DNA from: Mobula hypostoma
Lineage: Eukaryota
Assembly: GCF_963921235.1 (NCBI RefSeq)
Contig: NC_086097.1
Span: 64,482,001 to 64,546,000, forward strand
Direction: 5' to 3'
Length of the DNA stretch: 64,000 bases
Shown here: positions 19,641 through 64,000 of the stretch, piece by piece
How the letters are laid out: each line of letters opens with the position of its first letter
Position numbering within the stretch: position 1 is the first letter of the stretch
The notes under the pieces: generated by a model
Database searches by the model: none
Seen by the model: the letters and a program-made list of their open reading frames with translations, nothing else
Told to the model about the DNA's origin: nothing
Made by a program: the position numbers and the translations under genes

Positions 19641-19756
19641 CTATGTCAGTAGAGTCTAAACACCCTGATATACTAACAAAGGATCTTCATATCTCAAACC
19701 TTATTCTGAGACATACACATCAAGAGTTGTACATGGTGGCCTAAAGCATATGTTAA

Positions 19757-32115: not shown

Positions 32116-33060
32116 TTTCTATTTAGATGTTGCAATTGTGTTCATGCTCACTTTCATTCCTGTCTGCAACTCAATTGCATCTCTGTCAGTGGTTCCATTG
32201 GAACAGTGATTTCAACTGCTCTTTCAAATGTGAGATGTGTTTTAGCTGTTTTTGAATGCTTTCTTGTAAGATTCAACAAACGAAATGACCTGTCAGTGCA
32301 TCATTATGCCTATTACTGAACCAGCAATGTTCAGACAATCTCTTCAATTCAGCCACGTATGCTGAAATGGATTCCCTTTCTTTTTGATTCCACTTATGAA
32401 ACCTAAAGTGTTCTGCAATCAACAATGGCTTTGGTTCTAAATGTTCCTGCATTACTTTGACAATATCAGCAAAGCTAATTTCTGCTTGTTTGGTTGGACC
32501 AGCTAAACATTGAAGCAAACTGTATATGTTTAAACACAATGCGCTCAGCAAAATTGGCATTTGTTTCTCATTGGCTATTTCATTTGCTTCAAAATATTGT
32601 TCAATTAGCTCAGTACCTGAGCCAGCTATCTCTTGTGGAATCAAATGCACCAATCTTTCTGATGTAGTCAGCCATTTCTGCTTTTTTTGTAATGATTATT
32701 ATCACCCAGTATTCACTCTTTATGAACCCATGAATTCTTCTGTTTTCTTACTTTTTTCAAGAGCGTTGATCGTGTCTTCCCTTCTGAAGAACCCATGTTG
32801 GGCTGCTTTTATTTTTAACTTTACCATCTCTGCATTTTTTACTCACGTGATTTTTTTTTAGTCTGAACATCTCGCAGTGCTTCAACAGGTTGATAGCTGT
32901 CTCAGATTCATTTTTAAAAATATCATGGTGCCAATGTTATGTTTTGTAGCTTCAAATCATTGAACTAATACAAAGGAAGACTTAGAAGTCCAAACTGTTA
33001 GTCTAACTTTGTGTTTACTTTAAGTGAGGTGTGCACATATCACATGATAGCATGATCATG
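32116..33060 (-). mobile_element. Inverted 5' half of a Gypsy element (partial 5' LTR 32935-33060, PBS-like TGG, gag N-terminus)
   Basis: YFEANEIANEKQMPILLS..HLEPKPLLIAEHFRFHKWNQKERESISAYVAELKRLSEHC; LTR end ..cataaca followed by ttggcaccatg. Confidence 0.85.
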
Positions 33061-33071
33061 TATAAATAAAA

Positions 33072-33202
33072 TAGAGGCATCTGTTAGTCTTGCGAGACCA
33101 TGGATCTGCACCTGGAAGGTCTTCACTCTCCAGGGTGCAGGCCTGGGCAAGGTTGTATGGAAGACCGGCAGTTGCCCATGCTGCAGTCTCCCCTCTCCAT
33201 GA
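33072..33202 (-). mobile_element. RTE-related non-autonomous element, 3' fragment
   Basis: Minus-strand end atccatggtctcgcaagactaacagatgcctc followed by an AT-rich tail resembles RTE 3' termini. Confidence 0.55.
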
Positions 33203-34084
33203 CAATTGAGTTGCAGACAGGAATGAAAGTGAGCATGAACACAATTGCAACATCTAAATAGAAACCAGCCTGGCCAAACAAATTGTGTTACCGTTGTGGC
33301 AGGGGCTCAGATAAACCAGACCAATGCAAGTTAAAAGGTGAAACTTGCAGAAAATGCAACAAAGTAGGACACATACAAAGAGCATGTTGGGCAGACAAAA
33401 ATAAATGGACTACGCAGGGAAGAGGAAAAAGCCAAAAAATAAAGATGTATTTTAAAAAGGAGCACTCATCTACATGCTAGTGATGAAAAGTCTGATAATG
33501 ATGAGAGTGACACAGGATTGCATAGCCTTGAGATTTACATTGTGAAAGCTAACAGTACTTAAACAATATAGCTTACACTACAAGTGAACAGCAAATTAAT
33601 TAAAATGGATTGGACACTGGTTCAGCTGTTTCAGTCATTCCACAAAATGAGTCAGAACAGCATTTCAAAGATATTAAACTGATGCCTGCAGATACCTAAC
33701 TAAACCTATACTGGAAAACAGATAACTCCTGTGGGAATGACATTTGTGACAGTGAAATTCAACAGCCAACAAGCCATATTGAGCAGTTACGTGGTAAAAG
33801 CAGGAGGGCCAGCATTGTCAGACATGAGAGAGTCAGAGTGAGCGGTAGCAGAGTGTAGGGCTTTGGCTTCAACGGGCTTTGGCGGTAAACGGGAATAGGC
33901 GAGAGCGAAGAACCAACTCTTTTTTTCTCCCACCCACTTTCACGAATCGGCCACGACAGACAGGAACAACAGGGCTCTCACAGATAACGGTACGAGCTAA
34001 CGGTTTAAAAAGTTCGTCTGTTTGGCGAGGTAAGTGGGTGAGTAGACTTATTTTTCCTGTTTCATTCCTGTAGAATTAGGTAGC

Positions 34085-35189: not shown

Positions 35190-38007
35190 AAAAGTACCAA
35201 ATACTGGTCTTAAGGTGTTGTACTTAAATGCACACAGCATAAGGAATAAGGTGGATGATCTCGTCGTACAGCTACAGATTGGCAGATATGATATTGTGGG
35301 CATCACTGAGACGTGTCTAAAGGATGCATGTCTCTGGGAGCTGAACGTCCAAGGATACACGGTGTATCAGAAGGATAGGAAGGTAGGCAGAGGGGGAGGC
35401 GTGGCTTTATTGGTAAGAAATGATATTAAATCATTAGAAAGAGGTGATACAGGATTGGAAGGTGCAGAATCTTTATGGGTTGAGCTGAGAAATCGCAGGG
35501 GTAAAAGGACCCTGATGGCAGTTATTTATAGGCCTCCAAACAGCTGCAGTGATGTGGACTACAAATTACAACAGGAAATAGAAAAGGCTTGTCAGAAGGG
35601 CAGTGTTATGATAATTGTGGGGGATTTTAACATGTGAGAGGATTGGGAAAATCAGGACGGCACTGGATCTCAAGAGGGAGCTTTTGTAGAATGTCTGCGA
35701 GATGGCTTTTTAGAACAGCTTGTTGTTGGGCCCACCAGGGGATCAGCTGTATTGGATTGGGTATTGTGTAATGAACTGGAGGTGATCAGAGAGATTGAGG
35801 TGAAGGAACCCTTAGGAGGCAGTGATCATAACATGATTGAGTTCACTGTGACATTTGAAAAAGAGAAGCGGATATCTGATGTGTCAGTATTTCAGTGGAG
35901 TAAAGAACATTACAGTGGCATGAGAGAGGAACTGGCCAAAGTTGACTGGAAAGAGACACTGGCAGGAAAGACAGCAGAACAGCAGTGGCTGGAGTTTATG
36001 CAAGAAGTGAGGAAGGTGCAAGACAGGTATATTCCAGAAAAGACGAAATTTTCGAATGGAAGAAGGATGCAACTGTGGTTGACAAGAGAAGTCAAAGCCA
36101 AAGTTAAAGCAAAGGAGAGGGCATTCAAGGAAGCAAAAATTAGTGGGAAGACAGAGGATTGGGAAGTTTTTTAAACCTTACAAAAGGAAACTAAGAAGGT
36201 CATTAAGAGAGAAAACATTAACTATGAAAGGAAGCTAGCAAATAATATCAAAGAGGATACTAAAAGCTTTTTCAAGTATATAAAAAGTAAAAGACAGGTG
36301 AGAGTAGATATAGGACTGATAGAAAATGATGCTGGAGAAATTGTAATGGGAGATAAGGAGATGGCAGAGGAACTGAATGAGTATTTTGCATCAGTCTTCA
36401 CTGAGGAAGACATCAGCAGGATACCGGACACTCAAGGGTGGCAGGGAAGAGAAGTGTGCGCAGTCACAATTATGACAGAGAAAGTACTCAGGAAGCTGAA
36501 TAGTCTAAAGGTAGATAAATCACCCGTACCAGATGGAATGCACCCGCGTGTTCTGAAAGAAGTAGCTGTGGAGATTGCGGAGGCATTAGCGATGATCTTT
36601 CAAAAGTCGATAGATTCTGGCATGGTTCCGGAGGACTGGAAGATTGCAAATGTCACTCCGCTATTTAAGAAGGGGGCAAGGAAGCAAAAAGGAAATTATA
36701 GACCTGTTAGTTTGACATCGGTGGTTGGGAAGTTGTTGGAGTTGATTGTCAAGGATGCGGTTACAGAGTACCTGGAGGCATATGACAAGATAGGCAGAAC
36801 TCAGCATGGATTCCTTAAAGGAAAATCCTGCCTGACAAACCTATTACAATTTTATGAGGAAATTACCAGTAGGCTGGACAAGGGAAATGCAGTGGATGTT
36901 GTATATTTGGATTTTCAGAAGGCCTTTGACAAGGTGCCACACATGAGGCTACTTAACAAGATAAGAGCGCATAGAATTACGGGAAAGTTACATACGTGGA
37001 TAGAGCGTTGGCTGATTGGCAGGAAACAGAGAGTGGGAATAAAGAGATCCTATTCTGGTTGGCTACCGGTTACCAGTGGTGTTCCACAGGGGTCCGTGTT
37101 GGGGGCCGCTTCTTTTTACATTGTACATCAACCATTTGGATTATGGAATAGATGGCTTTGTGGCTAAGTTTGCTGACGATATGAAGATCGGTGGAGGGGC
37201 TGGTAGTGCTGAGGAACGGAGAGTCTGCAGAGAGACTTGGATAGATTGGAAGAATGGGCAAAGTAGTGGCAAATGAAGTACAATGTTGGAAAGTGTATGG
37301 TTATGCACTTTGGCAGAAGTAATAAACGGGCAGACTATTATTTAAATGGGGAAAGAATTCAAAGTTCTGAGATGCAACGAGACTTGGGAGTCCTTGTACA
37401 GGATACCCTTAAGGTTAACCTCCAGGTTGAGTCGGTAGTGAAGAAGGCGAATGCAATGTTGGCATTCATTTCTAGAGGAATAGAGTATTGGAGCAGGGAT
37501 GTGATGTTGAGGCTCTATAAGGTGCTGGTGAGACCTCACTTGGAGTACTGTGGGCAGTTTTGGTCTCCTTATTTAAGAAAGGATGTGCTGACGTTGGAGA
37601 GGGTACAGAGAAGATTCACTAGAATGATTCCGGGAATGAGAGGGTTAACATATGAGGAACGTTTGTCCGCTCTTGGACTGTATTCCTTGGAGTTTCGAAG
37701 AATGAGGGGAGACCGTATAGAAACATTTTGAATGTTGAGAGGCATGGACAGAGTGGATGTGGCAAAGTTGTTTCCCATGATGGGGGAGTCTAGTACGAGA
37801 GGGCATGACTTAAGGATTGAAGGGCACCCATTCAGAACAGAAATGCGAAGAAATTTTTTTAGTCAGAGGGTGGTGAATCTATGGAATTTGTTGCCACGGG
37901 CAGCAGTGGAGACCAAGTCATTGGGTGTATTTAAGGCAGAGATTCATAGGTATCTGAGTAGCCAGGGCATCAAAGGTTATGGTGAAAAAGCGGGGGAATG
38001 GGACTAA
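35190..38007 (+). pseudogene. CR1 ORF2 (endonuclease-RT), broken by stops and frameshifts
   Basis: YLNAHSIRNK, GITET, GDFN, SDHN, DFQKAFDKV, GVPQGSVLG, KFADD spread over several ORF pieces. Confidence 0.92.
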
Positions 38008-39479
38008 ATGTGAGAATGGATCAGCTCATGATAAAATGGCGGAGCAGACTCGATGGGCTGAATGGCTGACTTCTGCTTCTTTGTTTTATGGTCTTATGGT
38101 CTTATGAGTGGGTGAGACAACTACAATGCAATTTGAGATCCATCCGTTCTTTGCATGCCACATTTCCTGTAATAAAGTCAACAGAAGGCAAATTAAGAAA
38201 GATACTGGATGATGCTACAACTGCTTCCACACTGAACGCCATGAAATGTTGCCTAATGGAGGGTAAACAAATATTGGTGCCAACGTCTGTTCCTCTGGTT
38301 GGAAAGCATATTGGACCAAGGGAGGACCATCCTGCTGAGAGGAACCATGAATGTGACAAAAGCAGTGATCCGACTGCAACAGATTTTGTAGGCAACATAT
38401 CTGAGAAAGCTTTTGATATGTTCATCAGGTAGTTACTTGTGAAATCTGGGTTGGTTTTAAGCTGGAAGAGAGCTCAAGGAGCTTCAAGAAAGTTGCAAGC
38501 ATTCAGCTTTTGTAATTTAAAGAGCCAGAATCTACTCTGCACGTATTACAGTTATTGCATGAACTTCAAGTGGGAGGGAAAAAGCTGCTTGTAAAAGTAC
38601 ATGTAATGACTAAGCCCAGCTGGATGAACGGAAGACCATAAAGAAAGGAGTCAGTGGAGATATGAAAACAGAGCATTCGTCAGATGATGTTGTGGATGTG
38701 GAAACAAGAGGAGTGATCAGATCGTAAAGGGAACAATAGAAGGATTAATAAGAGAATACTCCAGTGAATGAAATGCACCATCTCAAGATCAAGATGCACA
38801 AACTAGAGGAAGAAAAAGGAAGGAGAAGAAACGTGTGCAGAGCTGTCAGAACCACTTCCTACAGTCTCAGAGTCAACTCCTACAACTGCCATGGGAGAGG
38901 CCCGAGGACCTGAGATTGTTTTCACAGCCACAAGTCTCTCCTGCCAAGCCAAGATATCCCCCTTGTCAGGAAAGACATTATTCCATAAGAATAAGAAAGC
39001 TTCCACAGTGATGAAATCTTCCGACCTAAATGGAACAATTTAAAATTTACTATGCTGTGGATGTCTGTATACAGTACTTGTATTATATAATACACTGTGC
39101 ATATAGTTGAGATCCATTCCCTATTGAGTCGGAGTTAATATACATTGGTTGATTAAGCATTCTTGTTTGTTCAGATAATTCATTACAATTATATGTATAA
39201 ATACGTGAATTGCATACATCATCATGCTACCATGTGATACATGTACACCTCACTTAAAGTAAACACAAAGTTATCAGTTCATTGTATTAGTTCAATGTTT
39301 TGAAGCTACAAAACATAGCATACTTGCTAGATAGGTATGGCAATAGTTATTTGGAACTCACTTAAGTTTAGGCTGGGCAACTCAAATTAGCACTAATGAG
39401 GGATGAATTCTCGGAATGTGTATTTCCAGATAAGAAATTGACAAAATATCTACAGAACAGGGCATTTTAGATCTTATAC

Positions 39480-44596: not shown

Positions 44597-45742
44597 ATAG
44601 TAGTAGTGGTGCGATCAAACGAGTCGAGTATGATGCTCTAAGGGATTGTCTGTTGGTGGGTCCTCAGTAAAAGTTGATATGAGATCCATACACTCTGGTG
44701 CAGTGTGAGCAAGAGAAAGTGGTGGTTGTGTTACTTGTTGGGTGTTTTGGTTATTCAGTCTGTCTTTTCACAGCAGCCCTTTGTTCGATGTGGCACAGTG
44801 GAGGTTGTTCTCATAACTCGCAGATCCCTCTTGAACAGATGTACCTATTGAATGCAATGTCTTCCCAGATTCTACATATAATGTTGAGTTTCTTCAAGCT
44901 GATTTTCATGTTATCTTGAAGCATTCCCTTTACTTACCAAGGGGTTGCTGAGCTCTCTTCAACTGGGAGTAAAGGGTCTATTCAGAGCGAGACATGAATT
45001 AGGCATCCAGGTGATGTGACCTATCCATCAGGGTTGGTATCACTTCATTGCAGTGGAGGTGCTAGTCATGTTAGCATCCTCCAAACTGCAGGTGCAGTGC
45101 ATCTGTCTTTCCAGCTGATACTTAAAATCTTTGGGATGGATCTTTGGTGGTATTTTTCCAGGGCTTTCAGGTGCCTACTGTAGGTGGTCCATGATTCAGC
45201 TCCAAACAGTAATGCAGGACGGACGACCACTCTATGGACCGAAAGGTTTTTTGCTTTCAAGGCGGTTTTCAAAGACCCATTTCCTTAATCTTGTCGAGGC
45301 TCCACTAACACTACTCAGGTGGTGGTTGATTTCTGCATCAATGTCTGCATTTGGAGAGAGAATGCTGCCAAGGTAGGGAAAGTGGTCTACATTTTTAAGA
45401 ATGATATAGTGAACTTTTATGGAGGGCTAGATAAATAGCTGGTTTGGCAGTGGCTGAGATAGAACCTGATATAGACAAGACAAGAACCAGGGTCCTATAT
45501 ACCTTGGCCAAAACATTCAGGATACATTGGAGGTGTTCTTCAGAGCATGGTCCAATGGCGTTGTCATCCACATACAGAAGCTTCATGATTGTGCTGGTGC
45601 TAACTTTGTTCTTGGCCTCGAACTGGTTGAGGTTGAAAAGCCTGCTGTCCATTCTCTACGTGATTGGGATTCCCTGTGGCCAGTCTTGGCCAATGAGGTG
45701 CAGTATAGCAGCAATAAAGATGGCAAGTACAATGGGCACAAA
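44597..45742 (-). mobile_element. RTE-clade LINE 3' portion, decayed
   Basis: DSRLFNLNQFEAKNKV..LLYVDD; VVRPALLFGAESWTTYSRHLKALEKYHQR; short (CTA)n tail. Confidence 0.85.
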
Positions 45743-45744
45743 CA

Positions 45745-46710
45745 TGAGAAAATCTGCAGATGCCAGAAATTCAAGCAACACACACAAAATGCTGGAGGAA
45801 CTCAGTAGACCAGGCAGTATCTACAGTTGATGTTTCAGGTCAAAACCCTTCAGTAGGACACAGGAATGGGGAATGGTGAATGGGGGGTGGGGTGGGTGGG
45901 GGTAATTAGCAGAAGTTCAAGAACTCAGTGTTAATAACATCAGGCTGGAGGCTACCCGGACGAAATATAAGGTGTTACTTCTCCAACCTGAGTGTGAGTG
46001 TGGCCTCTTTGTTCCATCCGCCACAAAAAGCAGGATCTCCTGGTAAACCACCCATTCCAATATGTCCGCCCTCCTGGTACTTATTCTTTCAAGTGGGACT
46101 AGTGCCACACCTATCCTTACAGGGCCCCAGGCAGTCCTTCCAGGTGACACAACACTTCACCTGCAAATCCTTTGAGGTCATCTACTGTTTCTGGAGCTCC
46201 CGGTGTGGCCTCCTGTATAATGGTGAGACCAGACATAGGTAGGGAGCCTGCTTCAATGAGCACCTTTGCTCCGTCTGCCACAAAAAGTGGATTTCTCTGT
46301 GGCCACCCACTTCAATTCTATTTCCCATTCTCATTCCAACATGCTAGTCCATGGCCTCCTCATCTGCTGCAATGAGGCCCTGAGGCCACACTCAGGTTGG
46401 AGCAGCAACACGCTATATTCCACCTGGGTAGCCTGAGGGTATGAACATTGATTTCTTGAACTTCTGGTAATTGCCTCCCCCCCCCACCGCTTCACCATTC
46501 CTGTTTCCCTCTTTACCTGCCCATCTCCTCCCCCTTCCCTTTCTCCCAGTGGTCTTCTGTCCTCTCCTATCAGATTCCCCCAAATCCAGCCCTTTAGCTC
46601 TTTCACCAAACAACTCTCCAGCTCCTTACTTCACACTCTCCCGGTTTCACCTATCACCTACAATCTTGTCCTTCTTCCTCCCCTCCCCCCAGCTTCTTAC
46701 TCCGACTTCT
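45745..46710 (+). mobile_element. Penelope-like composite with inverted segments and GIY-YIG endonuclease remnant
   Basis: QHFTCKSFEVIYCFWSSRCGLLYNGET (GIY-YIG motif) on plus; minus-oriented terminal repeat and GIY-YIG tail at 45745-46005. Confidence 0.8.
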
Positions 46711-46994
46711 CTTGACCAGTTACCTTCCTCTAGTTGCTTGCTGTAATTTGTTGTACTTTGTTCAACTCTACTGTATATTCAACCTTATTTCAAACATCCC
46801 TATGAATGGCCTCACTTTGAATCCCACACTCTCACTTCAAGAGTTCATCCCTGCCCGTTCCATAGTATCAGACAAATTAGAGGCCCCACTCCGAATGTAT
46901 AAGCTTTACCTCTCCACCAAAATACTTGACTTTTCTCCTTCACTTTGCTTATACATTGTTGAATTGTGAACGAGTGTTAATATCTTCTAACTAG

Positions 46995-47149: not shown

Positions 47150-49437
47150 TGTTATGCTTTGTAACTCCAAAATATAAAATTGATTGAACGAAAAACACAG
47201 GAGACTGGTAGAATGTGCATATTTTATTTTTACTTTAGTGATACGACATGGTGGCATAATGCCGTCTGCCATTTACATACTTCGTACATCTAACCCGTAA
47301 CGGATTATGTGAACAACAAAGAACACCTAATCAAACTATATATTTACAATATTACTAAAATATTGTGTTGGCTGTCTGTCATTTCTGACGATGATATTAA
47401 TCTCATTATTGGGTAAAGAGCTGGAGAGAGTAAAACCTGTGCTGGAGGAGTTTTACAGCGAAAAAGCCATTGCACTGGGGCAGTTCCACACTCTCAGCCT
47501 CAAAAATCTTGGTCCAATGGTTCAAAAATTCGTCACGACTGGAGACTTCCTTGGCAGCAGTGGATAGCCAAGATGCCTTTTGTGCCTTGTCATGCCCTTC
47601 ACTCTCCACGCAGAGTTGCAGCACCACCTTCTTGGCCATTGGATCTTGTAGTTGATCTTGTCTGCCCATTCCGCCAGAACTGGCTTTGTTTGCTGGGGTA
47701 GGCCTATCCCTATCTCACCAGGGCTGGAGGGTTCCCGGCTACTGTCACCTGGTTTAGTCCGTCTGTTGAAGTGGTGTACTGGGGTGTGGCCAGTGCTACA
47801 GTCAAACAGTTGAGACTGGGTGAAAACTGGGGAAGCTCATCCACATTTGGTCCCAGGGTGGAGCACAATGAGCCTGCCATCAGAGGTGCTACTCCTCCCT
47901 GGACACCCCATACACCTATACTGAAATATTACATACACAACACTCCTCCCTGCTTAGCTATAAACTCCAACTCAATATAGAATGCATCACAACTTCTGTA
48001 CACATATATATATACAGTATACTATATATAACAACTATTAAAGAGACTTTCACGGCATAGCAAATTTTAAATTGCCCCATTCAGGCCTAACAATTTAATC
48101 GCTGTGGAGAATTTCTTACTTTTGTGGGATAATGTCTTTCCTGACAAGGGGGCACTCTACTTGACAGGAGAGACTTGTGGCTGTGAAACAATCTTAGGTT
48201 CAGGGTTCTCCTCCGTAGTGGTTGTAGGAGTTGACTCTGGGACTGCTGGAACTGGTTCTCACAGCTCTGGCCATCTTTCGTCTGGGTGTTTTGGCATCCT
48301 GAACAGTGCACAGCAACCTTCACTGGACAACATGGATCATGATGTGTGACATCACCAAATCCTTTACCTTCTAAAAGTAATTTTGTCCATTGCCATTTCT
48401 TCCTGGTCTGTAGTAATGAGTTCAAGGTGTGGAGCACAGTAGCCAGGTTTGGCAAGAACCTGTTATAACAAATATTATGACAAATCCTAAAACAGACTGC
48501 AACTGTGACACATTGTTTGGTCTTGGGGCATCCACCACAGCTTAAATTTTCTCAGCACACTTGTGTAATCTTTGTATGATCACTGTAAATGATATATGAA
48601 TTAAACAATTCACACTTGTTGCATTGTGCTCAGAGCCCCTAATCTTCCAATCTTTTTAACACTGTCTTGTAGTTGTAAGTCTCAAAGCTAATGAGTCCTG
48701 TGTCACTCTTATAATTGTTCAATTTTTTCATCAACAGCATGCAGATTAGTGTTCTTTTTCAAATTGCAACTTGACTTTTTAATCTTTTCCTCTTCCCTAT
48801 GCTGTCCATTTATTTTTGGCTTCCCTATATACTCTTTGCATGTGTTTAACTTTGTTACACTTTCTGCAAGTTTCACATTTTTACTTGCATTGGTCTGGTG
48901 TATGTGAGCCTTTGCCACAACAGTAACACACTTTGTTCGTCAAGGCAAGTTTCTGTTGAGAGATTGCAATTTTGTTCACAATCAGTTTCATTCTTGACTG
49001 CAATTTCATCTGTCTGTGGTTTCCATTGAAACAGTGATTTCAACTGCTCTTTTAAATGTGAGTTGTGCTGCAGTTGGGAGCCATTTTTGAATGCTTTCTT
49101 TTAAGATTCCACAGATTAAATAGTCTCTCAGTGCATCATTAAACCCATCACTGAACCAATAAATGCTCAAACAATTTCTTCAATTCAGCTAAGTAAGCTG
49201 AAATGGATTCCCCTTCTTTGGATTCCACTTATGAAACCTAAAATGTTCTTCAATCAACAATGGTTTTGGTTCTAAACGTTCCTGCATTGCTTTCATAATA
49301 GCACTAAACCCCATCTTGGCTGATTTGTTTAAAGCATTTAAACTTACAGGAAAACTGTGTTCTCTTCCACCTATTGCAGTCAGTAACATTGGCACTTGCT
49401 TTTCATTTGCTTCAAAAGACTGCTCAATTTGTTCACC
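47150..49437 (-). mobile_element. Internally deleted Gypsy element related to 32116-39320; 3' LTR 47150-47942, PPT 47943-47952
   Basis: FEANEKQVPMLL..LEPKPLLIEEHFRFHKWN; MPNLATVLHTLNSLLQ..WQWT; PPCQERHYP..SPQRLN; minus-strand cagggaggag-TGTTG...CATAACA. Confidence 0.82.
47365..47918 (-). mobile_element. 554-bp non-coding RTE-related non-autonomous element with 12-bp TSD
   Basis: TSD tactaaaatatt (47353-47364) / tactgaaatatt (47919-47930); RTE-like 5' UTR joined to an RTE-like 3' end (tcgtcagaaatgacagacagccaac). Confidence 0.65.
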
Positions 49438-51250: not shown

Positions 51251-51776
51251 AGTTTCATGTTTTATCATTTTACAACATTGAATCACAGTGGATTTAATTT
51301 GGCTTGTTTGACACTGATCAACAGAAAAAGACTCTTTTGGCAGGTTTACAGTTATGCCATATTCTTTCATTTGATGATTAACTTATCTGTACTCCAAGGG
51401 ATATTCAGTGACTTGGAAATTTTCTTGCATCCATCTCCTGATTTTTGCTTTTCAGTAACCTTTTTGTGGAGTTGCTTTGTCTTCATGGTGTAGTTTTTGT
51501 CGGGATACTGACTCACCAGCAGTTGGACCTTCTTCTCCTTCTTCTATTTCCGGCAGTTTAGACGCTCTAGGTGTATTACTGCCCTCCGCAGGATGTATAA
51601 TTAATTAGAATTCTGCTTGGAAATGCTGTACGTGCTCAATAAATAGCAATGTCACAGATTGTTTTCCTTCTCAAATTTTCTCACCTGGTTTCCGAATAAT
51701 TGCTTTGCTTCAAATTACATTAATTTCATTTGAATCATTTGTAAAACTAAAAGCTTCTTTCTTGAGAATATTCATT

Positions 51777-53745
51777 AGACCATAAGACCATAAGACAAAG
51801 GAGCAGAAGTTGGCCATTCGACCCATCGAGTCTGCTCCACCATTTTATCATGAGCTGATCCATTCTCCCATTTAGTCCCACTCCCCCGCCTTCTCGCCAT
51901 AACCTTTGATGCCCTGGCTACTCAGATACCTATCAATCTCTGCCTTAAATACACCCAATGACTTGGCCTCCACTGCTGCCCGTGGCAACAAATTCCATAG
52001 ATTCACCACCCTCTGACTAAAAAAATTTCTTCGCATTTCTGTTCTGAATGGGCGCCCTTCAATCCTTAAGTCATGCCCTCTCATACTAGACTTCCCCATC
52101 ATGGGAAACAACTTTGCCACATCCACTCTGTCCATGCCTTTCAACATTCGAAATGTTTCTATGAGGTCTCCCCTCATTCTTCTAAACTCCAAGGAATACA
52201 GTCCAAGAGCGGACAAACGTTCCTCATATGTTAACCCTCTCATTCCCGGAATCATTCTAGTGAATCTTCTCTGTACCTTCTCCAACGTCAGCACAGCCTT
52301 TCTTAAATAAGGAGACCAAAACAGCCCACAGTACTCCAAGTGAGGTCTCACCAGCGCCTTATAGAGCCTCAACATCACATCCCTGCTCCTATACTCTATT
52401 CCTCTAGAAATGAATGCCAACATTGCATTCGCCTTCTTCACTACCGACTCAACCTAGAGGTTAACTTTAAGGGTATCCTGTACGAGGACTCCCAAGTCCC
52501 GTTGCATTTCCGAACTTTGAATTCTTTCCCCATTTAAATAATAGTCTGTCCGTTTATTTTTTCTGCCAAAGTGCATAACCATACACTTTCCAACATTGTA
52601 CTTCATTTGTCACTTCTCTGCCCATTTTTCCAATCTATCCAAGTCTCTCTGCAGACTCTCCGTTTCCTCAGCACTATTGGCCCCTCCACCTATCTTCATA
52701 TCGTCAGCAAACTTAGCCACAAAGCCATCTATTCCATAATCCAAATGGTTGATGTACAATGTAAAAAGAAGCGGCCCCAACACGGACCCCTGTGGAACAC
52801 CACTGGTAACCAGCAGCCAACCAGAATAGGATCCCTTTATTCCCACTCTCTGTTTCCTGCCAATCGCCAACGCTCTATCCACATATGTAACTTTCCCGTA
52901 ATTCCATGGGCTCTTATCTTGTGAAGTAGCCTCATGTGTGGCACCTTGTCAAAGGCCTTCTGAAAATCCAAATATACAACATCCACAGCATCTCCCTTGT
53001 CTAGCCTACTTGCAATTTCCTCAAAAAATTGTAATAGGTTTGTCAGGCAGGATTCTCCTTTAAGGAATCCATGCTGAGTTCTGCCTATCTTGTCATATGC
53101 CTCCAGGTACTCTGTAACCTCATCCTTGACAATCGACTCCAACAACTTCCCAACCACTGATGTCAAGCTAACAGGTCTATAATTTCCGTTTTGTTTCCTT
53201 GCCCCCTCCTTAAATAGTGGAGTGACATTTGCAATCTTCCAGTCCTCCGGAACCATGCCAGAATCTATCGACTTTTGAAAGATCGTCGCTAATGCCTCCG
53301 CAATCTCCACAGCTACTTCCTTCAGAACACGAGGGTGCATTCCATCTGGTCCGGGAGATTTATCTACCTTTAGACTATTCAGCTTCCTGAGTATTTCTCT
53401 GTCGTAATTGTGACTGCGCACACTTCTCTTCCCTGCCACCCTTGAGTGTCCGGTATACTGCTGATGTCTTCCTCAGTGAAGACTGATGCAAAATACTTGT
53501 TCAGTTCCTCTGCCATCTCCTTATCTCCCATTACAATTTCTCCAGCATCATTTTCTATCAGTCCTATATCTACTCTCACCTGTCTTTTACTCTTTATATG
53601 CTTGAAAAAGCTTATAGTATCCTCTTTGTTACTATTTGCTAGCTTCCTTTCATAGTTAATCTTTTCCCTCTTAATGACCTTCTTGGTTTCCTTTTGTAAG
53701 GTTTTAAGAACGTCCCAATCCTCTGTCTTCCCTCTAATTTTTGCT
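51777..53745 (-). mobile_element. 5'-truncated CR1, same subfamily as 33829-38103
   Basis: Near-identical peptides (MRVDIGLIENDAGEIV..., ...YGEKAGEWD) and (CCATAAGA)n tail. Confidence 0.95.
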
Positions 53746-55857
53746 TCGCATGCTTAACATTTAAAACAGTTGTTTTCCAAGTCTACCTGCTATTTCCAAG
53801 TTTTCCTTTTCTTGAATCAAAGCCTGAGTTGTTTATTGAGATCTTGAAATTATTCCTCAGTTGTTTCCATGTTTTCATTTTATAATCTGAATGTAGATAA
53901 TTCACTTTGCAACAAATTCCTATTTCCTTTTGTAACTTTGGAATAAGTTCCTCCATTTTTAATCCGTTTTCCATGTCACTGAATTTTTGACAACAAGCAT
54001 CTTTTTCAGAAACCGTCTCCTTTAAATGCAGTACTGTTTCGTCCAATCTCTTTCCAACTCACAGTTATTCTTATTGAGTACTTCTATTTGTTGATAGAGT
54101 TCTGCACATTTACCCTGGGTTTCAACCATGTTTCTTGTAACATAAGATCTGAGGTTTTTTCCTTAAATTCTGGGACATATTTCGTAAATTCTTGATCATT
54201 TGCGATAAGACTCCTTGCATTCCCTCGTAATATATATATACAGCCATTAATTTCCCGCTTCACCTGCCTGTGAACTGTTTGATCCTCCATTCAGTGTATC
54301 TGTGACTGCTTCCCACCTAAGCCCTGTAATACCAAGATATTTTTCTGCAGACTTGACTATAATTTAAATTTTTTCAGTTCTTTTGTCTGTTTGCGCTGAA
54401 CAGTTAATTGCATCTACCATAAACAGTACGAAATCCTTCTTACTCATAATCAGTATGTCCTTATTTATCATATTACAACCCTCACAGTTCACTGGTTTAT
54501 TACTCCCTGTATTTGTTTGCTTGATAGCCTTCTTTTTTCTAGCAAATGCTTTCACTGCCTCTACGTAATTGACGCCTTGAGTTACTTTTACATATTGTAT
54601 CTCAGCTTCTTTCTTTCTAATAATGCATCCTTGATAAGTTGCACTGTGTTCCTCACCACAATTGCAGCATTTCAGCCTAGCTCCTGCCTCACATTTTCCA
54701 TATTTGTGTTCTCCAGCGCATCTGCCACATCTTTGTTTCCCTCTGTAGACCGCTGCAATATGCCCGAATTTCTGACATTTAAAGCATCTTAAAGGCGGTG
54801 GTATATATATTCTTACCTCATAACATATATACCCTAAATAAACTTTAGTTAGCAATCTCTCTTCATCAAAGTTGATCATAACCAATAAACTATCACACTT
54901 TTCCCCATTTCTTGTAACTTTCAAACATTTCATCTCAATAATTTTTGCTCCTTTTATGTTCTGTTTAATCTCATCCATAGTAGCTTTTGTTGGTATCCCC
55001 GAAATAACTCCTCTAGTTCTTTCTATATTTTTGCCGTCTATTTTACATAACCTTATCACTTTGCCTTGTTGAGCACTACCCCGACAAATCACTAATAGCG
55101 ATCTATTTTGTAAAATCTTTGCTCTTTTGACTTCACCTATAAGTTTGTTGATTATCTTCGTCAAATGAATCGGGTTCCATTCACCAAAAGACATAGAAAC
55201 ATAGAAACATAGAAAATAGGTGCAGGAGTAGGCCATTCGGCCCTTCGAGCCTGCACCGCCATTTATTATGATCATGGCTGATCATCCAACTCAGAACCCC
55301 GCCCCAGCCTTCCCTCCATACCCCCTGACCCCCGTAACCACAAGGGCCATATCTAACTCCCTCTTAAATATAGCCAATGAACTGGCCTCAACTGTTTCCT
55401 GTGGCAGAGAATTCCACAGATTCACCACTCTCTGTGTGAAGAAGTTTTTCCTAATCTCGGTCCTAAAAGGCTTCCCCTCTATCCTCAAACTGTGGCCCCT
55501 CGTTTTGGACTTCCCCAACATCGGGAACAATCTTCCTGCATCTAGCCTGTCCAATCCCTTTAGGATCTTATACGTTTCAATCAGATCCCCCCTCAATCTT
55601 CTAAATTCCAACGAGTACAAGCCCAGTTCATCCAGTCTTTCTTCATATGAAAGTCCTGCCATCCCAGGAATCAATCTGGTGAACCTTCTTTGTACTCCCT
55701 CTATGGCAAGGATGTCTTTCCTCAGATTAGGGGACCAAAACTGCACACAATACTCCAGGAAACAACAGGAATTCTGCAGATGCTGGAAATTCAAGCAACA
55801 TACATCAAAGTTGCTGGTGAACGCAGCAGGCCAAGCAGCATCTATAGGAAGAGGCGC

Positions 55858-55893
55858 AGTCGACGTTTCAGGCCGAGACCCTTCGTCAGGACT
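55858..55893 (-). ncRNA. Minimal hammerhead ribozyme motif (left arm)
   Basis: Reverse complement is AGTCCTGACGAAGGGTCTCGGCCTGAAACGTCGACT. Confidence 0.75.
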
Positions 55894-55921
55894 AACTGAA
55901 GGAAGAGTTAGTTAGTCAGTT

Positions 55922-55957
55922 AGTCCTGACGAAGGGTCTCGGCCTGAAACGTCGACT
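55922..55957 (+). ncRNA. Minimal hammerhead ribozyme motif (right arm)
   Basis: AGTCCTGACGAAGGGTCTCGGCCTGAAACGTCGACT, identical to 3838-3873. Confidence 0.75.
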
Positions 55958-58900
55958 GCGCCTCTTCCTATAGATGCTGCTTGGCCTGCTGCGTTCACCA
56001 GCAACTTTGACAATACTCCAGGTGTGGTCTCACCAAGGCCTTGTACAACTGCAGTAGTACCTCCCTGCTCCTGTACTCAAATCCTCTTGCTATAAATGCC
56101 AGCATACCATTCGCCTTTTTCACCACCTGCTGTACCTGCATGCCCACTTTCAATGACTGGTGTATAATGACACCCAGGTCTCGTTGCATCTCCCCTTTTC
56201 CTAATCGGCCACCATTCAGATAATAATCTGTTTTCCTATTTTTGCCACCAAAGTGGATAACTTCACATTTATCCACATTAAATTGCATCTGCCATGAATT
56301 TGCCCACTCACCCAACCTATCCAAGTCACCCTGCATCCTCTTAGCATCCTCCTCACAGCTAACACTGCCACCCAGCTTCGTGTCATCCGCAAACTTGGAG
56401 ATGCTGCATTTAATTCCCTCATCCAAGTCATTAATATATATTGTAAACAACTGGGGTCCCAGCACTGAGCCTTGCGGTACTCCACTAGTCACCGCCTGCC
56501 ATTCTGAAAAGGTCCCGTTTATTCCCACTCTTTGCTTCCTGTCTGCTAACCAATTCTCTATCCACATCAATACCTTACCCCCAATACCGTGTGCTTTAAG
56601 CTTGCACACTAATCTCCTGTGTGGGACCTTGTCAAAAGCCTTTTGAAAATCCAAATATACCACATCCACTGGTTCTCCCCTATCCACTCTACTAGTTACA
56701 TCCTCAAAAAATTCTATGAGATTCGTCAGACATGATTTTCCTTTCACAAATCCATGCTGACTTTGTCCGATCATTTCACCGCTTTCCAAATGTGCTGTTA
56801 TCACATCTTTGATAACTGACTCCAGCAGTTTCCCCACCACCGACGGTAGGCTAACCGGTCTATAATTCCCCGGTTTCTCTCTCCCTCCTTTTTTAAAAAG
56901 TGGAGTTACATTAGCCACCCTCCAATCCTCAGGAACTAGTCCAGAATCTAACGAGTTTTGAAAAATTATCACTAATGCATCCACTATTTCTTGGGCTACT
57001 TCCTTAAGCACTCTAGGATGCAGACCATCTGGCCCTGGGGATTTATCTGCCTTCACTCCCTTCAATTTACCTAACACCGCTTCCCTACTAACATGTATTT
57101 CGCTCAGTTCCTCCATCTCACTGGACCCTCTGTCTCCTACTATTTCTGGAAGATTATTTATGTCCTCCTCAGTGAAGACAGAACCAAAGTAATTATTCAA
57201 TTGGTCTGCCATGTCCTTGCTCCCCATAATCAATTCACCTGTTTCTGTCTGCAGGGGACCTACATTTGTCTTTACCAGTCTTTTCCTTTTTACATATCTA
57301 TAAAAGCTTTTACAGTCCGTTTTTATGTTCCCTGCCAGTTTTCTCTCATAATCTTTTTCCCCCTTCCTAATTAAGCCCTTTGTCCTCCTCTGCTGAACTC
57401 TGAATTTCTCCCAGTCCTCAGGTGAGCCACATTTTCTGGCTAATTTGTATGCTTCTTCTTTGGAATTGATACTATCCCTAATTTCCCTAGTCAGCCACGG
57501 GTGCACTACCTTCCTTGATTTATTTTTTGCCAAACTGGGATGAACAATTGTTGTAGTTCATCCATGCAACCTTTAAATGCTTGCCATTGCATATCCACCA
57601 TCAATCCTTTAAGTGTCATTTGCCAGTCTATCTTAGCTAATTCACGTTTCATACCTTCAAAGTTACCCCTCTTCAAGTTCAGAACCTTTGTTTCTGAATT
57701 AACTATGTCACTCTCCATCTTAATGAAGAATTCCACCATATTATGGTCACTCTTACCCAAGGGGCCTCTCACGACAAGATCGCTAATTAACCCTTCCTCA
57801 TTGCTCAAAACCCAGTCCAGAATAGCCTGCTCTCTAGTTGGTTCCTCGACATGTTGGTTCAAAAAACCATCCCACATACATTCCAAGAAATCCTCTTCCT
57901 CAGCACCTTTACCAATTTGGTTCACCCAGTCTACATGTAGATTGAAGTCACCCATTATAACTGCTGTTCCTTTATTGCACACATTTCTAATTTCCTGTTT
58001 AATACCATCTCTGACCTCACTACTACTGTTAGGTGGCCTGTACACAACTCCCACCAGCGTCTTCTGCCCCTTAGTGTTACGCAGCTCTACCCATATCGAT
58101 TCCACATCTTCCCGGCTTATGTCCTTCCTTTCTATTGCGTTAATCTCTTCTTTAACCAGCAACGCCACTCCACCTCCCCTTCCTTCATGTCTATCCCTCC
58201 TGAATATTGAATATCCCTGAACGTTGAGCTCCCATCCCTGGTCACCCTGTAGCCATGTCTCTGTGATCCCAACTATATCATAATCATTAATAACAATCTG
58301 CACTTTCAATTCATCCACCTTATTACGAATGCTCCTTGCATTGACACACAAAGCCTTCAGGTGCTCTTTTACAACTCTCTTAGCCCTTATGTTGAAAAGT
58401 GGCCCTTTTTAATGCTTGCCCTGGATTTGTCGGCCTGCCACTTTTACTTTTTTCCTTAGTACTTTTTGCTTCTACCCTCACTTTACACCCCTCTGTCTCT
58501 CTGCACTGGTTCCCATCCCCCTGTTGTGAACTAACCTCCTCACGCCTAGCCTCTTTAATTTGATTCCCACCCCCCAACCATTCTCGTTTAAAGTCACCTC
58601 AGTAGCCCCCGCTAATCTCCCTGCCAGGATATTGGTCCCCCTAGGATTCAAGTGTAACCTGTCCTTTTTGTACAGGTCACACCTGCGCCAAAAGAGGTCC
58701 CAATGATCCAAAAACTTGAATCCCTGCCCCCTGCTCCAATCCCTCAGCCACGCATTTATCCTCCACCTCATCGCATTTCTACTCTCACTGTTGCGTGGCA
58801 CAGGCAGTAATCCCGAGATTACTACCTTTGCGGTCCTTTTTCTCAACTCCCTACCTAGCTCCCTATATTCTCCTTTCAGGACCTCATCCCTTTTCCTACC

Positions 58901-59665
58901 TATGTCATTGGTACCAATATGTACCACGACCTCTGGCTCCTCACCCTCCCACTTCAGGATATCTTGGACACGATCAGAAATATCCCGGACCCTGGCACCA
59001 GGGAGGCAAACTACCATCCGGGTCTCTGGACTGCGTCCACAGAATCGCCTATCTGACCCTCTTACTATTGTTGTCCCCTATCACAACTGCCCTCCTCTTC
59101 CTTGCCCTACCCTTCTGAGCTACAGGGCCAGACTCTGTGCTGGGGGCTTCCCGGGTAAGCTGTCCCCCCCAACAGTACTCAAACAGGAGTACCTGTTGTT
59201 AAGGGGCACAGCCACCGGGGTACTCCCTATTACCTGACTTTTCCCTTTCTCCCTCCTAACCATGACCCACTTGTCTGCCTCCCGTGGCCCCGGCGTGACA
59301 ACCTGCCTGCAACTCCTCTCTATCACCTCCTCACTCTCCCTGACCAGACGAAGGTCATCGAGCTGCAGCTCCAGTTCCGTAACGCGGTCCCTTAGGAGCT
59401 GCATCTCGATGCACTTGGCGCAGATGTAGACGTCCGGGAGGCTTGGAGACTCCAGGGCCTCCCACATCCGACACCGAGAACAGCAAACTGCCCTCACACT
59501 CATACTGCCCCTCTCCTCAAATAACAACAGAAAATGAATGCCAAACCTTCCTCGCCTCGCCCGTCTCCGCCTAAGCCCGTTGAGCCGAAGCCCTTAAGTC
59601 TTCACTCTGCTCCCGGCTCACTCCGCAGCCCGCAAACTACGCTGCCCGCTCTATGAGGCTTTGTT

Positions 59666-59906: not shown

Positions 59907-60065
59907 TCTCAGAACACTCCGTCTTCGCTCAGTGTTATAATTGCTTTAATCTCATCTTCTTTCCGTTGTTTCGCTATCCTATTTTGTTTGTCCCCTGAAT
60001 CCTTAGAGTTTGACATCCCATAAATAACAGATGGGGTATGTATATAAATAAATAACGGATGGAAA

Positions 60066-60566
60066 AGATGAAGCCACGGTCAGGTTGGAGGAACAACACC
60101 TTATATTCCTTTTGGGTAGCCTCCAACCTGATGGCATGAACATTGACTTCTCAAACTTCCATTAATGTCCCACCTCCCCCTCGTACCCCATCCGTTACTT
60201 ATTTATATACACACATTCTTTCTCTCTCTCTCCTTTTTCTCCCTCTGTCCCTCTGACTATACCCCTTGCCCATCCTCTGGGTTGTTTCCCCCCTCCCCCT
60301 TTTCCTTCTCCCTGGGCCTCCTGTCCCATGATCCTCTCATATCCCTTTTACCAATCACCTGTCCAGCTCTTGGCTCCATCCCTCCCCCTCCTGTCTTCTC
60401 CTGTCATTTTGGATCTCCCCCTCCTCCTCCCACTTTCAAATCTCTTACTAGCTCTTCCTTCAGTTAGTCCTGATGAAGGGTCTCGGCCCAAAACGTCGAC
60501 TGTACCTCTTCCTAGAGATGCTGCCTGGCCTGCTGCGTTCACCAGCAACTTTGATGTGTGTTGCTC
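60066..60566 (+). mobile_element. Penelope-like 3' end (GIY-YIG tail plus terminal repeat); hammerhead motif with GAAA>AAAA change at about 60466-60501
   Basis: gatgaagccacggtcaggttggaggaacaacaccttata.. (DEATVRLEEQHLI..LGSLQPDGMNIDFSNF). Confidence 0.82.
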
Positions 60567-61353: not shown

Positions 61354-62109
61354 CTAATCAAATATGGATTATTACACAGCACCCAATCCAGAATTGCTGC
61401 TCCCCTAGCGGGTTCGACCACAAGCTGCTCTCAAAAGCCATCTCGTATATATACTACAAATACTCTCTCTTGGGATCCAGCACCAAGCTGACTTCCCCAT
61501 TTTGAAATTCCCCATTATTAAGGCACTTTTTACATGCCTTTTCTATCTCCCATTGTAATTTGTATCCCAAATCCTGGCTACTGTGAGTTTCTTTACTCAC
61601 AAGGATTCTACGTCTTTCAATCCTATGTCACCTGTTTCGAAGGATTGGATTTCATTTTTTACTCAGCAGAGCCATGCCACACCTCTGCCTACCTGCCTAT
61701 CCTTTTGATATAATGTGTATCCTTGGATGTTAAACTCACAACTATGATCTTCCTTCAGCCGACAAAGTCATACCTGCCAATCTCTAACTGTGCTAGAAGA
61801 TCATCTGCCTTATTCTGTATACTGCATGCATTCAAGTATAAAACTTTCAGTCCTGTTTTCATCATCCTTTTTGATTTTGACCTCTTGTTACACTTCAACT
61901 CATCTCACTCACTGTAATTTTGCCCCATTATCTACCTGTCCTTCCTCACAGTCTCACTACACACTGCATCTAGTTATGTACCAACTGCTCCATCTTCAGC
62001 CCTATCACTCTGCTTTCCATCCCCCTGCCAAATTAGTTTAAACCCCCCCCCCACTCCTCTTACAAACCTGCCCATAAGGATACTAGTCCTCCTTGGGTTG
62101 AGGTGTAAC

Positions 62110-63335
62110 ACCATAAGACAAAGGAGCAGAAGTCGGCCATTTGGCCCACCGAGTCTGCTCCGCCATTCTATCATGAGCTGATCCAATCTCCCATTTAGTC
62201 CCCCTCCCCTGCCTTCTCACCATAACCTTTCATGCCCTGGTTACTCATCTCTGCCTTAAATATACCTGATGACTTGACCTCTACTGCCACCCGTGGCAGC
62301 AGATTCCACAGATTCACCACCCTCTGGCTGAAAAAATTTCTTTGCATCTCTGTTCTGAATGGGCGCCCTTCAACCCTTAAGTCATGCCCTCTTGTACTAG
62401 ACTACCCCACCATGGGAAACAACTTTGCTATGTCCACTCTGTTCATGCCTTTCAACATTCGAAATGTTTCTATGAAGTCCCCCCTCATTCTTCTAAACTC
62501 CAAGGAGTACAGTCCATGAGCGGACAAACGTTCCTCATGTTAACCCTCTCATTCCCAGAATCATTCCAGTGAATCTTCTGTGAACCGTCTCCAGCATCAG
62601 CACATCCTTTCTTAAATAAGGAGCCCAAAACTGCACACAGTACTCCAAGTGAGGTCTTACCAGTGCCTTATAGAGCCTCAACATCACATCCCTACTCCTA
62701 TACTCCATTCCTCTAGAAATGAATGCCAACATTGCATTCGCCTTCTTCACCACCGACTCAACCTGGAGGTTAACCTTAAGGGTATCCTGTACGAGGACTC
62801 CCAAGTCCCATTGCAACTCAGAACTTTGAATTCCCCATTTAAATAATGGTCTGCCTGTTCATTTCTTCTACCAAAGTGCATAACCATACACTTTCCAACA
62901 TTGTACTTCATTTGCCACTTCTCTGCCCATTCTTCCAATCTATCCAAGTCTCTCTGTAGACTCTCTGTTTCCTCAGCACTACCAGCCCCTCCAACTATCT
63001 TTGTATCATCAGCAAACTTAGCCACAAAGCCATCTATTCCATAATCCAAATCATTGATGTACAGAGTAAAAAGAAGTGGCCCCAACACGGACCCCTGTGG
63101 AACACTACTGGTAACCAGCAGCCAAACAGAATGGGATCCCTTTATTCCCACTCTCTGTTTCCTGCCAATCAGCCAACGCTCTGTCCACCTATGTAACTTT
63201 CCCATAATTCCATGGGCTCTTATCTTGTTTAGCAGCCTCATGTGTGGCACCTTGTCAAAGGCCTTCTGAAAATCCAAATACACAACATCCACTGCGTCTC
63301 CCTTGTCTAGCCTACTTGTAATTTCCTCAAAAAAT
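62110..63335 (-). mobile_element. 5'-truncated CR1, same subfamily as 33829-38103
   Basis: MDVVYLDFQKAFDKVPHMRLLNK..KFADDTK; 3' UTR matches 51790-52100. Confidence 0.92.
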
Positions 63336-64000
63336 TTTTGTACAGGTCATACCTTCCCCAGAAGAGATCCCAATGATTCAGAAATCCGAACCCCTGCCCT
63401 CCTGCACTATTTCCTCAGCCACACATTCATCTGCCAAATCTGCCAAATCATCCTATTCTTACCCTCATTGGCATGTGGCATAGGCAATAATCCAGAGGTT
63501 AATGCCCTGGAGGTCTGGCTTTTTGCCTTACTCCCTATACTCTCTCTTCAGACCCTCCTCCCTTTTCCTACTATGTCATTGGTACCAATATATACCATGA
63601 CTCCCAGCTGTTCAATCTCCCCCTTTAGAACGTCATTAACCAGATCTGAGACACCCCTAACCCTGGCACTTGGGAGGCAACATACCATCCGGGTGTCCCT
63701 TTCACATCCACGGAGTCTGTTTTCTATTCCTCTAATTATGGAAAATAATTATTAGCAGATCTGTAACGATTCATAGCCATTCCATTATTCCACCTCTCAA
63801 ACCCCTCACCAATTCTGCAGTTATTTTTATTTCTCTGTGGGACCATGTGTTTTCTGTTGTGATGAAGTGTTTTGGATCTGATTCTCCTCAGATCCTTTGA
63901 AATCCATTATCCCTTATCCTAAATTTATGTCCTCTTGTTTTATTTGCCTCTGATTAAGGGGAAAATATACTCTACCCTAACAATACCCTTCCAAATCTTA

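What the first reader, a model, noticed from the sequence alone, without database searches (positions are those of the whole stretch)
55747..56022. 250-bp palindromic insert carrying one hammerhead ribozyme motif on each strand
Seen: a 13-bp TSD (acaatactccagg) flanks a perfect 95-bp inverted repeat with a 16-nt spacer (aggaagagttagttag) inside the ORF2 C-terminal region of a young CR1. Each arm holds an intact CTGACGA..GAAA-CG-TC hammerhead core. Known: Penelope-like elements carry minimal hammerheads and often insert with inverted terminal repeats. Inference: with no mismatches between arms the insertion is very recent. Transcription from either strand gives one sense hammerhead plus its full antisense, so a 95-bp dsRNA hairpin would sequester the ribozyme and could feed ADAR/Dicer. 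The (TTAG) stutter in the spacer looks like a template-switch scar. It could be a one-off abortive insertion or a member of a non-coding palindromic family.
Basis: partly seen in the sequence, partly recalled or inferred. Interest (0 to 1): 0.7.

Follow-up and report, generated by a model that had tools for sequence, protein, structure and literature searches.

The report
Tiny head-to-head Penelope retroelement insertion
This hairpin-shaped 250-base insert is real but ordinary: it is two truncated tail ends of a very abundant Penelope-like jumping gene joined head to head inside one target-site duplication, a published insertion pattern, and its two ribozyme motifs are predicted to be inactive.

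Summary
In detail: an exact 13-bp target-site duplication (TSD), exact 95-nt inverted arms and a minimal hammerhead motif on each strand, inside the ORF2 of a young CR1-type LINE. The insert is not a symmetric palindrome. It is a 153-nt antisense 3' end of a Penelope-like element (PLE) with a 45-nt tail, joined to a 94-nt tail-less sense copy. 13 of the 16 'spacer' bases are element sequence. The junction sits on a 7-nt self-complement and carries a short templated stutter. An inverted truncated copy, a one-sided tail and a TSD are the published PLE insertion unit. Close hammerheads on opposite strands were noted in 2014. Five of seven family units that I mapped in this window are head-to-head, and public contigs show other inversion junctions at other positions. 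A one-off is therefore likely. No genome was held, so copies of this exact junction could not be counted, and no listed contig bridges it. The full hairpin is predicted to block both ribozymes by 70-77 kcal/mol; transcription of the locus was not shown. The scan reported this pattern earlier on other DNA of this genome. Already known; low interest.

The parts
55747..55759 (+). Left copy of 13-bp target-site duplication (CR1 ORF2 sequence)
   Evidence: empty form (skip of 263, 13 letters fit both sides) in contigs of other CR1 copies, table 5
55760..55804 (-). 45-nt one-sided PLE tail (outside the palindrome)
   Evidence: 1 difference in 46 nt from the sibling at 3926-3971; same long end at 3971, 20537, 45740
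55760..55912 (-). 5'-truncated PLE 3' end (pLTR with tail), 153 nt, sense on the minus strand
   Evidence: 95.5% over 156 nt to 3971-3816 and 91.8% over 122 nt to 60565-60444; family contigs run on past 55912 into normal upstream sequence (X1 32 contigs, X5 12; table 7)
55857..55894 (-). Minimal type I hammerhead motif, predicted cut between 55862 and 55861
   Evidence: 5-bp stem I, CUGACGA, extra A, 4-bp stem II with G-U at 10.1-11.1, GAAA-CG-UC
55906..55925 (+). Inversion junction: 55906-55912 is the reverse complement of 55891-55897; 55910-55917 is repeated at 55918-55925; five 4-nt AGTY units; 55913-55915 belong to neither arm
55916..56009 (+). Inverted 5'-truncated pLTR copy without tail, 94 nt, identical to the left arm; 1-nt overlap with the TSD
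55921..55958 (+). Minimal type I hammerhead motif, predicted cut between 55953 and 55954
56010..56022 (+). Right copy of the TSD
55191..59077 (-). Host CR1-type LINE: 8-nt tail repeat 55191-55219, RT ORF 57557-55291 broken by the insert, APE endonuclease 58408-57506, esterase-type ORF1 59077-58478; 5' end not mapped
   Evidence: the name CR1 rests on my recall of this domain set and tail

Best explanation
The insert is two 5'-truncated 3' ends of an endonuclease-bearing Penelope-like retroelement joined head to head inside one 13-bp TSD, likely made in one dead-on-arrival integration in which both cut target ends primed reverse transcription and the two short cDNAs were joined by microhomology. 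Steps: (1, inferred) the GIY-YIG endonuclease cuts the CR1 target with a 13-nt stagger; (2, inferred from published in-vitro work on an anole PLE) each 3' end primes on element RNA, one at the outer start site (153 nt, with tail) and one at the inner site (94 nt, no tail); (3, inferred from the junction) the longer cDNA stopped where its last 7 nt complement the end of the other, primed one 4-nt unit out of register, added 5 nt, let go and re-primed on 2 nt, leaving the stutter; (4) fill-in gave the TSD. The hammerheads are passengers of the pLTR. In a transcript from either strand the antisense arm is made first and the ribozyme is predicted to be locked in the hairpin.
For: Sequence identity to dispersed family copies. 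A sibling 92.6% identical over the arm runs upstream into coding sequence 87.5% identical over 72 aa to P0001, a ray protein with RT-like and GIY-YIG parts (GIY-YIG E 4.6e-4). The architecture matches PMC8557442 (passages) and PMC3846280 (passages). Opposite-strand minimal hammerheads 100-700 bp apart are in PMC4209133 section 5. An anole PLE protein cuts and extends both strands and starts at two sites that define the tail (PMC11167929, parts 1-2 of 4). 5 of 7 mapped family units in the window are head-to-head. In 3 of the 4 older ones, at least one arm holds element sequence that the other lacks in a way that a fold-back copy cannot give. Of the 15 joints shown table 5 (860 in all), 6 join antisense to sense arm, each at a different place and none at this junction. 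Forcing the hammerhead costs 70.5 (+) and 77.1 (-) kcal/mol.
Against: The short end lies 45-46 nt inside the long end, against 33-37 nt for the four other short ends in the window (read from the alignment) and 30-40 in print, so it does not sit on the usual second start site. Both arms share two bases (55960, 55981) absent from the three closest siblings, which fits one template copied back as well as two templates from one source. The GIY-YIG score of P0001 (20.9 bits) is below Pfam's cut-off (22.6), and the window's own endonuclease fragments hit no Pfam or NCBIfam model. No listed contig bridges either insertion junction or the inversion junction (tables cut). Genome-wide copies of the junction could not be counted.
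Confidence: 0.88

Rival explanations
1. Same PLE origin, but the second arm is a fold-back copy: the first cDNA's 3' end snapped back on itself, was extended for 94 nt along its own sequence and then jumped to the other target end on 1 nt of homology. This is a variant within the best explanation; I put about 40% on it against 60% for two-ended priming.
For: The left piece ends at the only one of 124 positions tested with a 7-nt or longer self-complement within 40 nt (post hoc, one case; DNA hairpin -3.8 kcal/mol). The arms are identical, private bases included. The short end is off the usual site. PMC3846280 infers self-priming from palindromes at inverted junctions.
Against: The same 7 nt would also pair with the end of a second cDNA. 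Three of four older inverted units in the window cannot be simple fold-back copies. A simple snap-back would give a junction 12 nt shorter than seen.
Confidence: 0.35
2. The 250-nt unit is a copy of a propagating non-coding hairpin family, mobilised whole by the PLE protein.
For: PLE cis sequences can mobilise cargo in trans (PMC3846280). The unit keeps the tail and both pLTR ends. Some other inversion joints have summed depths of several hundred.
Against: No second copy in the window. Family contigs leave the window at 55912 into normal upstream sequence. The listed inversion joints all differ. Depth is stated not to be a copy number. A perfect 95-bp RNA hairpin would be a poor template (inference).
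Confidence: 0.05
3. Assembly or sequencing fold-back artefact.
For: Perfect palindromes are a known artefact class (recalled). No listed contig bridges the junction, and the best runs hold only 74% of the sampled words.
Against: An exact 13-bp TSD, an exact empty-site match to other CR1 copies, an asymmetric tail and a non-symmetric templated junction are not what a read fold-back gives; the flanks on the two sides are not mirror images.
Confidence: 0.04
4. An older insertion whose arms were homogenised afterwards by gene conversion or cruciform repair.
For: Shared private bases in both arms.
Against: The host CR1 is young (4 differences in 244 nt from the copy at 13154-13397; 667 open codons), so few mismatches are expected anyway. 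The two older two-hammerhead units have clearly diverged arms.
Confidence: 0.03

Closest known systems
Canonical endonuclease-bearing PLE insertion unit (Pen2a_Av of Adineta vaga, PMC3846280; fig. 2 text of PMC8557442)
   Same: Adjacent inverted 5'-truncated pLTR, head-to-head, tail at one end only, short TSD (8-10 bp there, 13 here), self-complementary sequence at the junction.
   Different: Here both pieces are cut down to pLTR only (153 and 94 nt), with no ORF. The tail offset is 45-46 nt, not 30-40. The junction carries a 12-nt stutter.
Minimal hammerheads (min-HHR) of metazoan PLEs (PMC4209133)
   Same: Core CUGANGA and GAAA-CG-UC, extra nucleotide before stem II, 5-bp helix I, no helix III; pairs on opposite strands 100-700 bp apart already reported in Schistosoma.
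   Different: G10.1-U11.1 wobble instead of G-C, also in the young sibling at 3.8 kb. The two motifs are closer (cores 36 nt apart) and sit in a perfect inverted repeat. Helix II is 4 bp, not the 7-8 bp given for Schistosoma.
PAc (Poseidon of Anolis carolinensis) in vitro (PMC11167929)
   Same: Two element ends, with and without a tail; the 3' region folds into a stem-loop at the short end (z -2.6).
   Different: The parent here has a Cys-rich linker before the endonuclease (P0001), which points to the Neptune/Nematis type; no tree was built. The hammerhead lies downstream of the ORF.
Non-LTR retrozymes (bioRxiv 10.64898/2026.07.22.740005, part 1 of 5 and passages)
   Same: Non-coding, PLE-related, type I hammerheads.
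   Different: Retrozymes are tandem repeats with hammerheads on one strand; this insert is inverted and cannot release a monomer.
L1 twin-priming inversions (recalled)
   Same: Two priming events, inversion, TSD, junction microhomology.
   Different: Twin priming copies two different parts of one RNA; here the same 94 nt were copied twice.

Membership tests
Endonuclease-bearing PLE insertion unit | Derived from an element with PLE RT and C-terminal GIY-YIG endonuclease | tested here: met
   Indirect: sibling 60064-60565 links the arm (92.6%) to P0001 (87.5% over 72 aa); P0001 GIY-YIG E 4.6e-4, just under the curated cut-off
Endonuclease-bearing PLE insertion unit | 5' truncation with an adjacent inverted truncated copy, head-to-head | tested here: met
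Endonuclease-bearing PLE insertion unit | Tail at one end only | tested here: met
   55760-55804 present on the left piece only
Endonuclease-bearing PLE insertion unit | Tail length 30-40 bp | tested here: inconclusive
   45-46 nt here; 33-37 nt for four other short ends in the window
Endonuclease-bearing PLE insertion unit | Short TSD around the whole unit | tested here: met
   13 of 13 bp
Neptune clade of PLEs | Placement by RT phylogeny; zinc-finger-like linker between RT and endonuclease | not tested
   Cys-rich linker seen by eye in P0001; no tree built
Minimal hammerhead (min-HHR) of PLEs | Conserved core, NUH site, helices I and II, palindromic 15.2-16.2, extra nt between 9 and 10.1 | tested here: met
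Minimal hammerhead (min-HHR) of PLEs | G10.1-C11.1 pair (highly conserved, though not part of the published descriptor) | tested here: not met
   G-U wobble (or A-U in the other register); so filed as a motif variant, not as a shown ribozyme
Minimal hammerhead (min-HHR) of PLEs | Self-cleavage as a dimer | not testable with these tools
   Needs in-vitro assay; a single S. mansoni min-HHR showed none in PMC4209133
Non-LTR retrozyme | Two or more tandem units with hammerheads on the same strand | tested here: not met
   One motif per strand; no tandem array here
MITE or fold-back DNA transposon | Inverted repeats at both termini | tested here: not met
   45 nt of tail lie outside the left arm
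Propagating palindromic non-autonomous family | Several loci with the same junction and ends but different TSDs | tested here: inconclusive
   None in the window; no genome held; tables are cut

The most novel reading that the evidence does not exclude
The 250-nt hairpin is one copy of a self-propagating, non-coding PLE derivative that is mobilised whole, keeps its ribozymes switched off by built-in antisense, and seeds double-stranded RNA against its own hugely amplified parent family wherever it lands in a transcribed LINE.
Probability: 0.05. Interest if true: 0.55.

Novelty: already known. Interest (0 to 1): 0.13.

Why it matters
As it stands it matters little: it is a clean, young, minimal example of a published PLE insertion pattern. 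Its one use is mechanistic. How PLEs make inverted units is still called undefined in PMC8557442, and this junction can be read base by base (7-nt complement, out-of-register priming, 12-nt stutter). A genome-wide set of such young junctions could separate two-ended priming from fold-back and show whether the telomerase-related RT re-primes repeatedly. One case cannot.

Tried and rejected
Rfam: 0 hits in the window at gathering score; at E<=10 only generic miRNA-hairpin models hit the palindrome, all below their gathering scores, rejected as hairpin matches. Pattern scans for the hammerhead region found 0 loci in viral contigs and 0 in metagenome contigs. A homologue search with the GIY-YIG-like fragment at 46150-46359 found nothing; Pfam and NCBIfam scans of the two endonuclease fragments gave nothing. 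TSD search for the other family units: none convincing; a 9-bp repeat at 294-302/1085-1093 is within background. The automatic 3'-end caller over-extended three short-ended copies (0.4k, 19.8k, 60.4k); their ends were read from the alignment instead. Depths were not used as copy numbers. Run X11 is only guessed to be RNA and holds contigs, so it shows nothing about transcription of this locus. A look-up of earlier findings near this place and by sequence returned nothing. A search for a paper on twin priming in PLEs returned 3 unrelated listings; 'Penelope, shark, hammerhead ribozyme' returned one review, seen as a listing only. Supplements of the cited papers were not opened; they may list fish or ray hammerheads. 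Rejected readings: retrozyme, MITE, miRNA precursor, spacer as wholly foreign scar, age from arm identity alone.
Full report
Observation. The window shows an exact 13-bp direct repeat at 55747-55759 and 56010-56022, and arms at 55805-55899 and 55916-56010 that are 95 of 95 complementary with 16 nt between them. The last arm base is the first TSD base. In 150 random boundary pairs the best direct-repeat score was 10, against 13 here. The insert breaks a minus-strand RT frame (RVT_1, E 6.7e-35) that is open for 667 codons without it and 520 with it. Upstream lie an APE endonuclease and an esterase-type ORF1, and downstream an 8-nt tail repeat. From recall this set marks a CR1 LINE. Contigs of runs X1, X5 and X9 show the empty form with a 263-nt skip; these may all be other CR1 copies, so they confirm the target sequence but do not show an empty allele.

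What the insert is. It is not symmetric. 55760-55912 is the antisense strand of a dispersed repeat: 95.5% over 156 nt to 3971-3816 and 91.8% over 122 nt to 60565-60444. These siblings carry the first part of the 'spacer'. In public contigs the family runs on past 55912 into its normal upstream sequence (32 contigs in X1, 12 in X5; table 7). So 13 of the 16 spacer bases are element sequence. 55916-56009 is a second, sense copy lying wholly within the span of the first, 94 nt long and lacking the last 45-46 nt. The sibling at 60064-60565 joins this repeat to coding sequence 87.5% identical over 72 aa to P0001, named by its source as a Mobula hypostoma protein, which has an RT-like N-terminal part and a GIY-YIG domain (E 4.6e-4, 20.9 bits against a cut-off of 22.6). 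The repeat is therefore the 3' end (pLTR) of an endonuclease-bearing PLE, and the genome is probably that of a ray or other cartilaginous fish (inference). A Cys-rich linker suggests the Neptune/Nematis type; I built no tree.

The pattern is common in the window. I mapped seven family units. Five are head-to-head: about 308-1081, 19755-20540, 31636-32118, 45740-46713 and the focal one. Two are single: 3786-3971 and 60064-60565. Copies end either at a long end with tail (1077, 3971, 20537, 45740, 55760) or at a short end. Four short ends lie 33-37 nt inside the long end (read); the focal one lies 45-46 nt inside, which is a departure from the rule. In the two older units with a hammerhead on each arm, one arm has the tail and the other does not. 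In three of the four older inverted units the arms cannot be simple fold-back copies of each other: at 308-1081 the tail is on the short arm and the long arm lacks it, and at 31.6 kb and 45.7 kb the opposite arm starts further upstream in the ORF. Only the focal unit has a convincing TSD. In one search, 15 of 860 joints were shown; 6 of them join the antisense arm to the sense arm, each at a different place, and none is the focal junction. Three more such joints appear among the 12 rows shown in table 5c. Two of the six are perfect palindromes with a 1-nt centre and could be sequencing fold-backs. No listed contig bridges the focal junctions; the tables are cut and the best runs hold 74% of the sampled words, so this is neither support nor refutation.

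The junction. 55906-55912 is the reverse complement of 55891-55897, 8 nt upstream. It is the only one of 124 possible end points along the left piece with a self-complement of 7 nt or more; the figures are 0 of 157 and 6 of 473 along two siblings. This is a post-hoc test on one case. 55910-55917 is repeated at 55918-55925, and 55906-55925 reads as five 4-nt units AGTT AGTT AGTC AGTT AGTC. Direct extension from the 7-bp pairing would give a junction 12 nt shorter. All bases are explained if the end primed one unit out of register, added 5 nt, released and re-primed on 2 nt. The template could be a second cDNA or the first cDNA itself. Whether the RT or a host repair polymerase made it is unknown.

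The ribozymes. Each arm has a 5-bp stem I, CUGACGA, an extra A, a 4-bp stem II opened by G-U, and GAAA-CG-UC with no helix III. Rfam does not detect them. PMC4209133 (passages and section 5) describes such motifs as dimer-dependent, with no detectable cleavage for a single motif and a highly conserved G10.1-C11.1 pair, which is a wobble here. The motifs point outward, so a transcript from either strand makes the antisense arm first. The insert folds at -210 kcal/mol (z -26.6), and forcing the hammerhead stems costs 70.5 and 77.1 kcal/mol on the two strands. Even the lone arm gives stem II a pairing probability below 0.03 in this model. Sequestration is therefore predicted, but it removes little activity. 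Nothing here shows that the locus is transcribed, edited or diced.

Age. Zero mismatches in 94 nt has probability 0.39 at 1%, 0.15 at 2% and 0.05 at 3.1% divergence, so the arms give only a loose bound. The host CR1 differs from a second copy at 4 of 244 sites and keeps a long open frame, so the insertion is young in divergence terms. No absolute date follows. The arms share two bases absent from the three closest siblings, which points to one source locus or one template.

Comparison with what is known. [quoted passage not shown] PMC3846280 (passages): Pen2a_Av has an adjacent inverted pLTR, a 31-bp one-sided tail and a 9-bp TSD; head-to-head units with palindromes at the junction are the most frequent form and are read as self-priming. 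PMC4209133: dual minimal hammerheads about 100-700 bp apart on opposite strands. PMC11167929 (parts 1-2 of 4): a PLE protein cleaves and extends both strands, is predicted to be a dimer, starts at two sites that define the tail, and does not need hammerhead cleavage in vitro. The retrozyme preprint (part 1 of 5 and passages) defines retrozymes as tandem units, which this is not. PMC8969392 (passages) lists inverted pLTRs and short 3' extensions as PLE traits; PMC9977147 (passages) reports new PLE insertions of median 128 bp. Earlier notes of this scan on other DNA of the same genome describe the same two-armed units. They are unchecked AI notes and are not counted as evidence.

Verdict. A real, young, most likely one-off PLE insertion of a published type (0.88), reduced to its smallest form. 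Within that, two-ended priming is favoured over fold-back about 60 to 40. A propagating palindromic family is not excluded but unsupported (0.05). Already known; interest 0.13.

Noticed in passing
window 32116-33264: 1.15-kb element with perfect 62-bp terminal inverted repeats, inserted right after a PLE ORF fragment; a related diverged copy lies at about 48674-49435 without matching ends. Looks like a non-autonomous DNA transposon.
   Followed up: partly
window 308-1081: Older head-to-head PLE unit in which the tail is on the short arm, and that arm starts just before the hammerhead core; cannot be a simple fold-back copy.
   Followed up: partly
window 19755-20540, 31636-32118, 45740-46713: Three more head-to-head units of the same PLE family; no clear TSD left.
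   Followed up: partly
table 5, joints ending at 55925-55931: Several other inversion junctions in public contigs start the sense arm at the first bases of the hammerhead core, three with 3-nt microhomology; two others are perfect palindromes with a 1-nt centre. May be a turning hot spot, an effect of how contigs are laid, or sequencing fold-backs.
   Followed up: no
window 55865-55870 and 55945 (position 11.1 of both hammerheads); 3.8-kb sibling: The youngest subfamily seems to carry U at hammerhead position 11.1 while nearby CpG sites are intact, so the wobble may be fixed in the active lineage.
   Followed up: partly
window 54367-55188 (-): 274-codon stop-free frame with a weak zinc knuckle (E 0.045), probably ORF1 of another LINE; the CR1 tail abuts it.
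   Followed up: partly
window 36130-38107 and 51772-53747: Two LINE copies 95.4% identical over 2 kb in inverted orientation 14 kb apart; a third at 62106-63336 is about 90% identical.
   Followed up: no
window 13154-13397: 244-bp 3' fragment of the same young CR1 family (98.4% to 55193-55436).
   Followed up: partly
window 2436-2617: Three tandem copies of a 61-bp unit, 97% matches.
   Followed up: no
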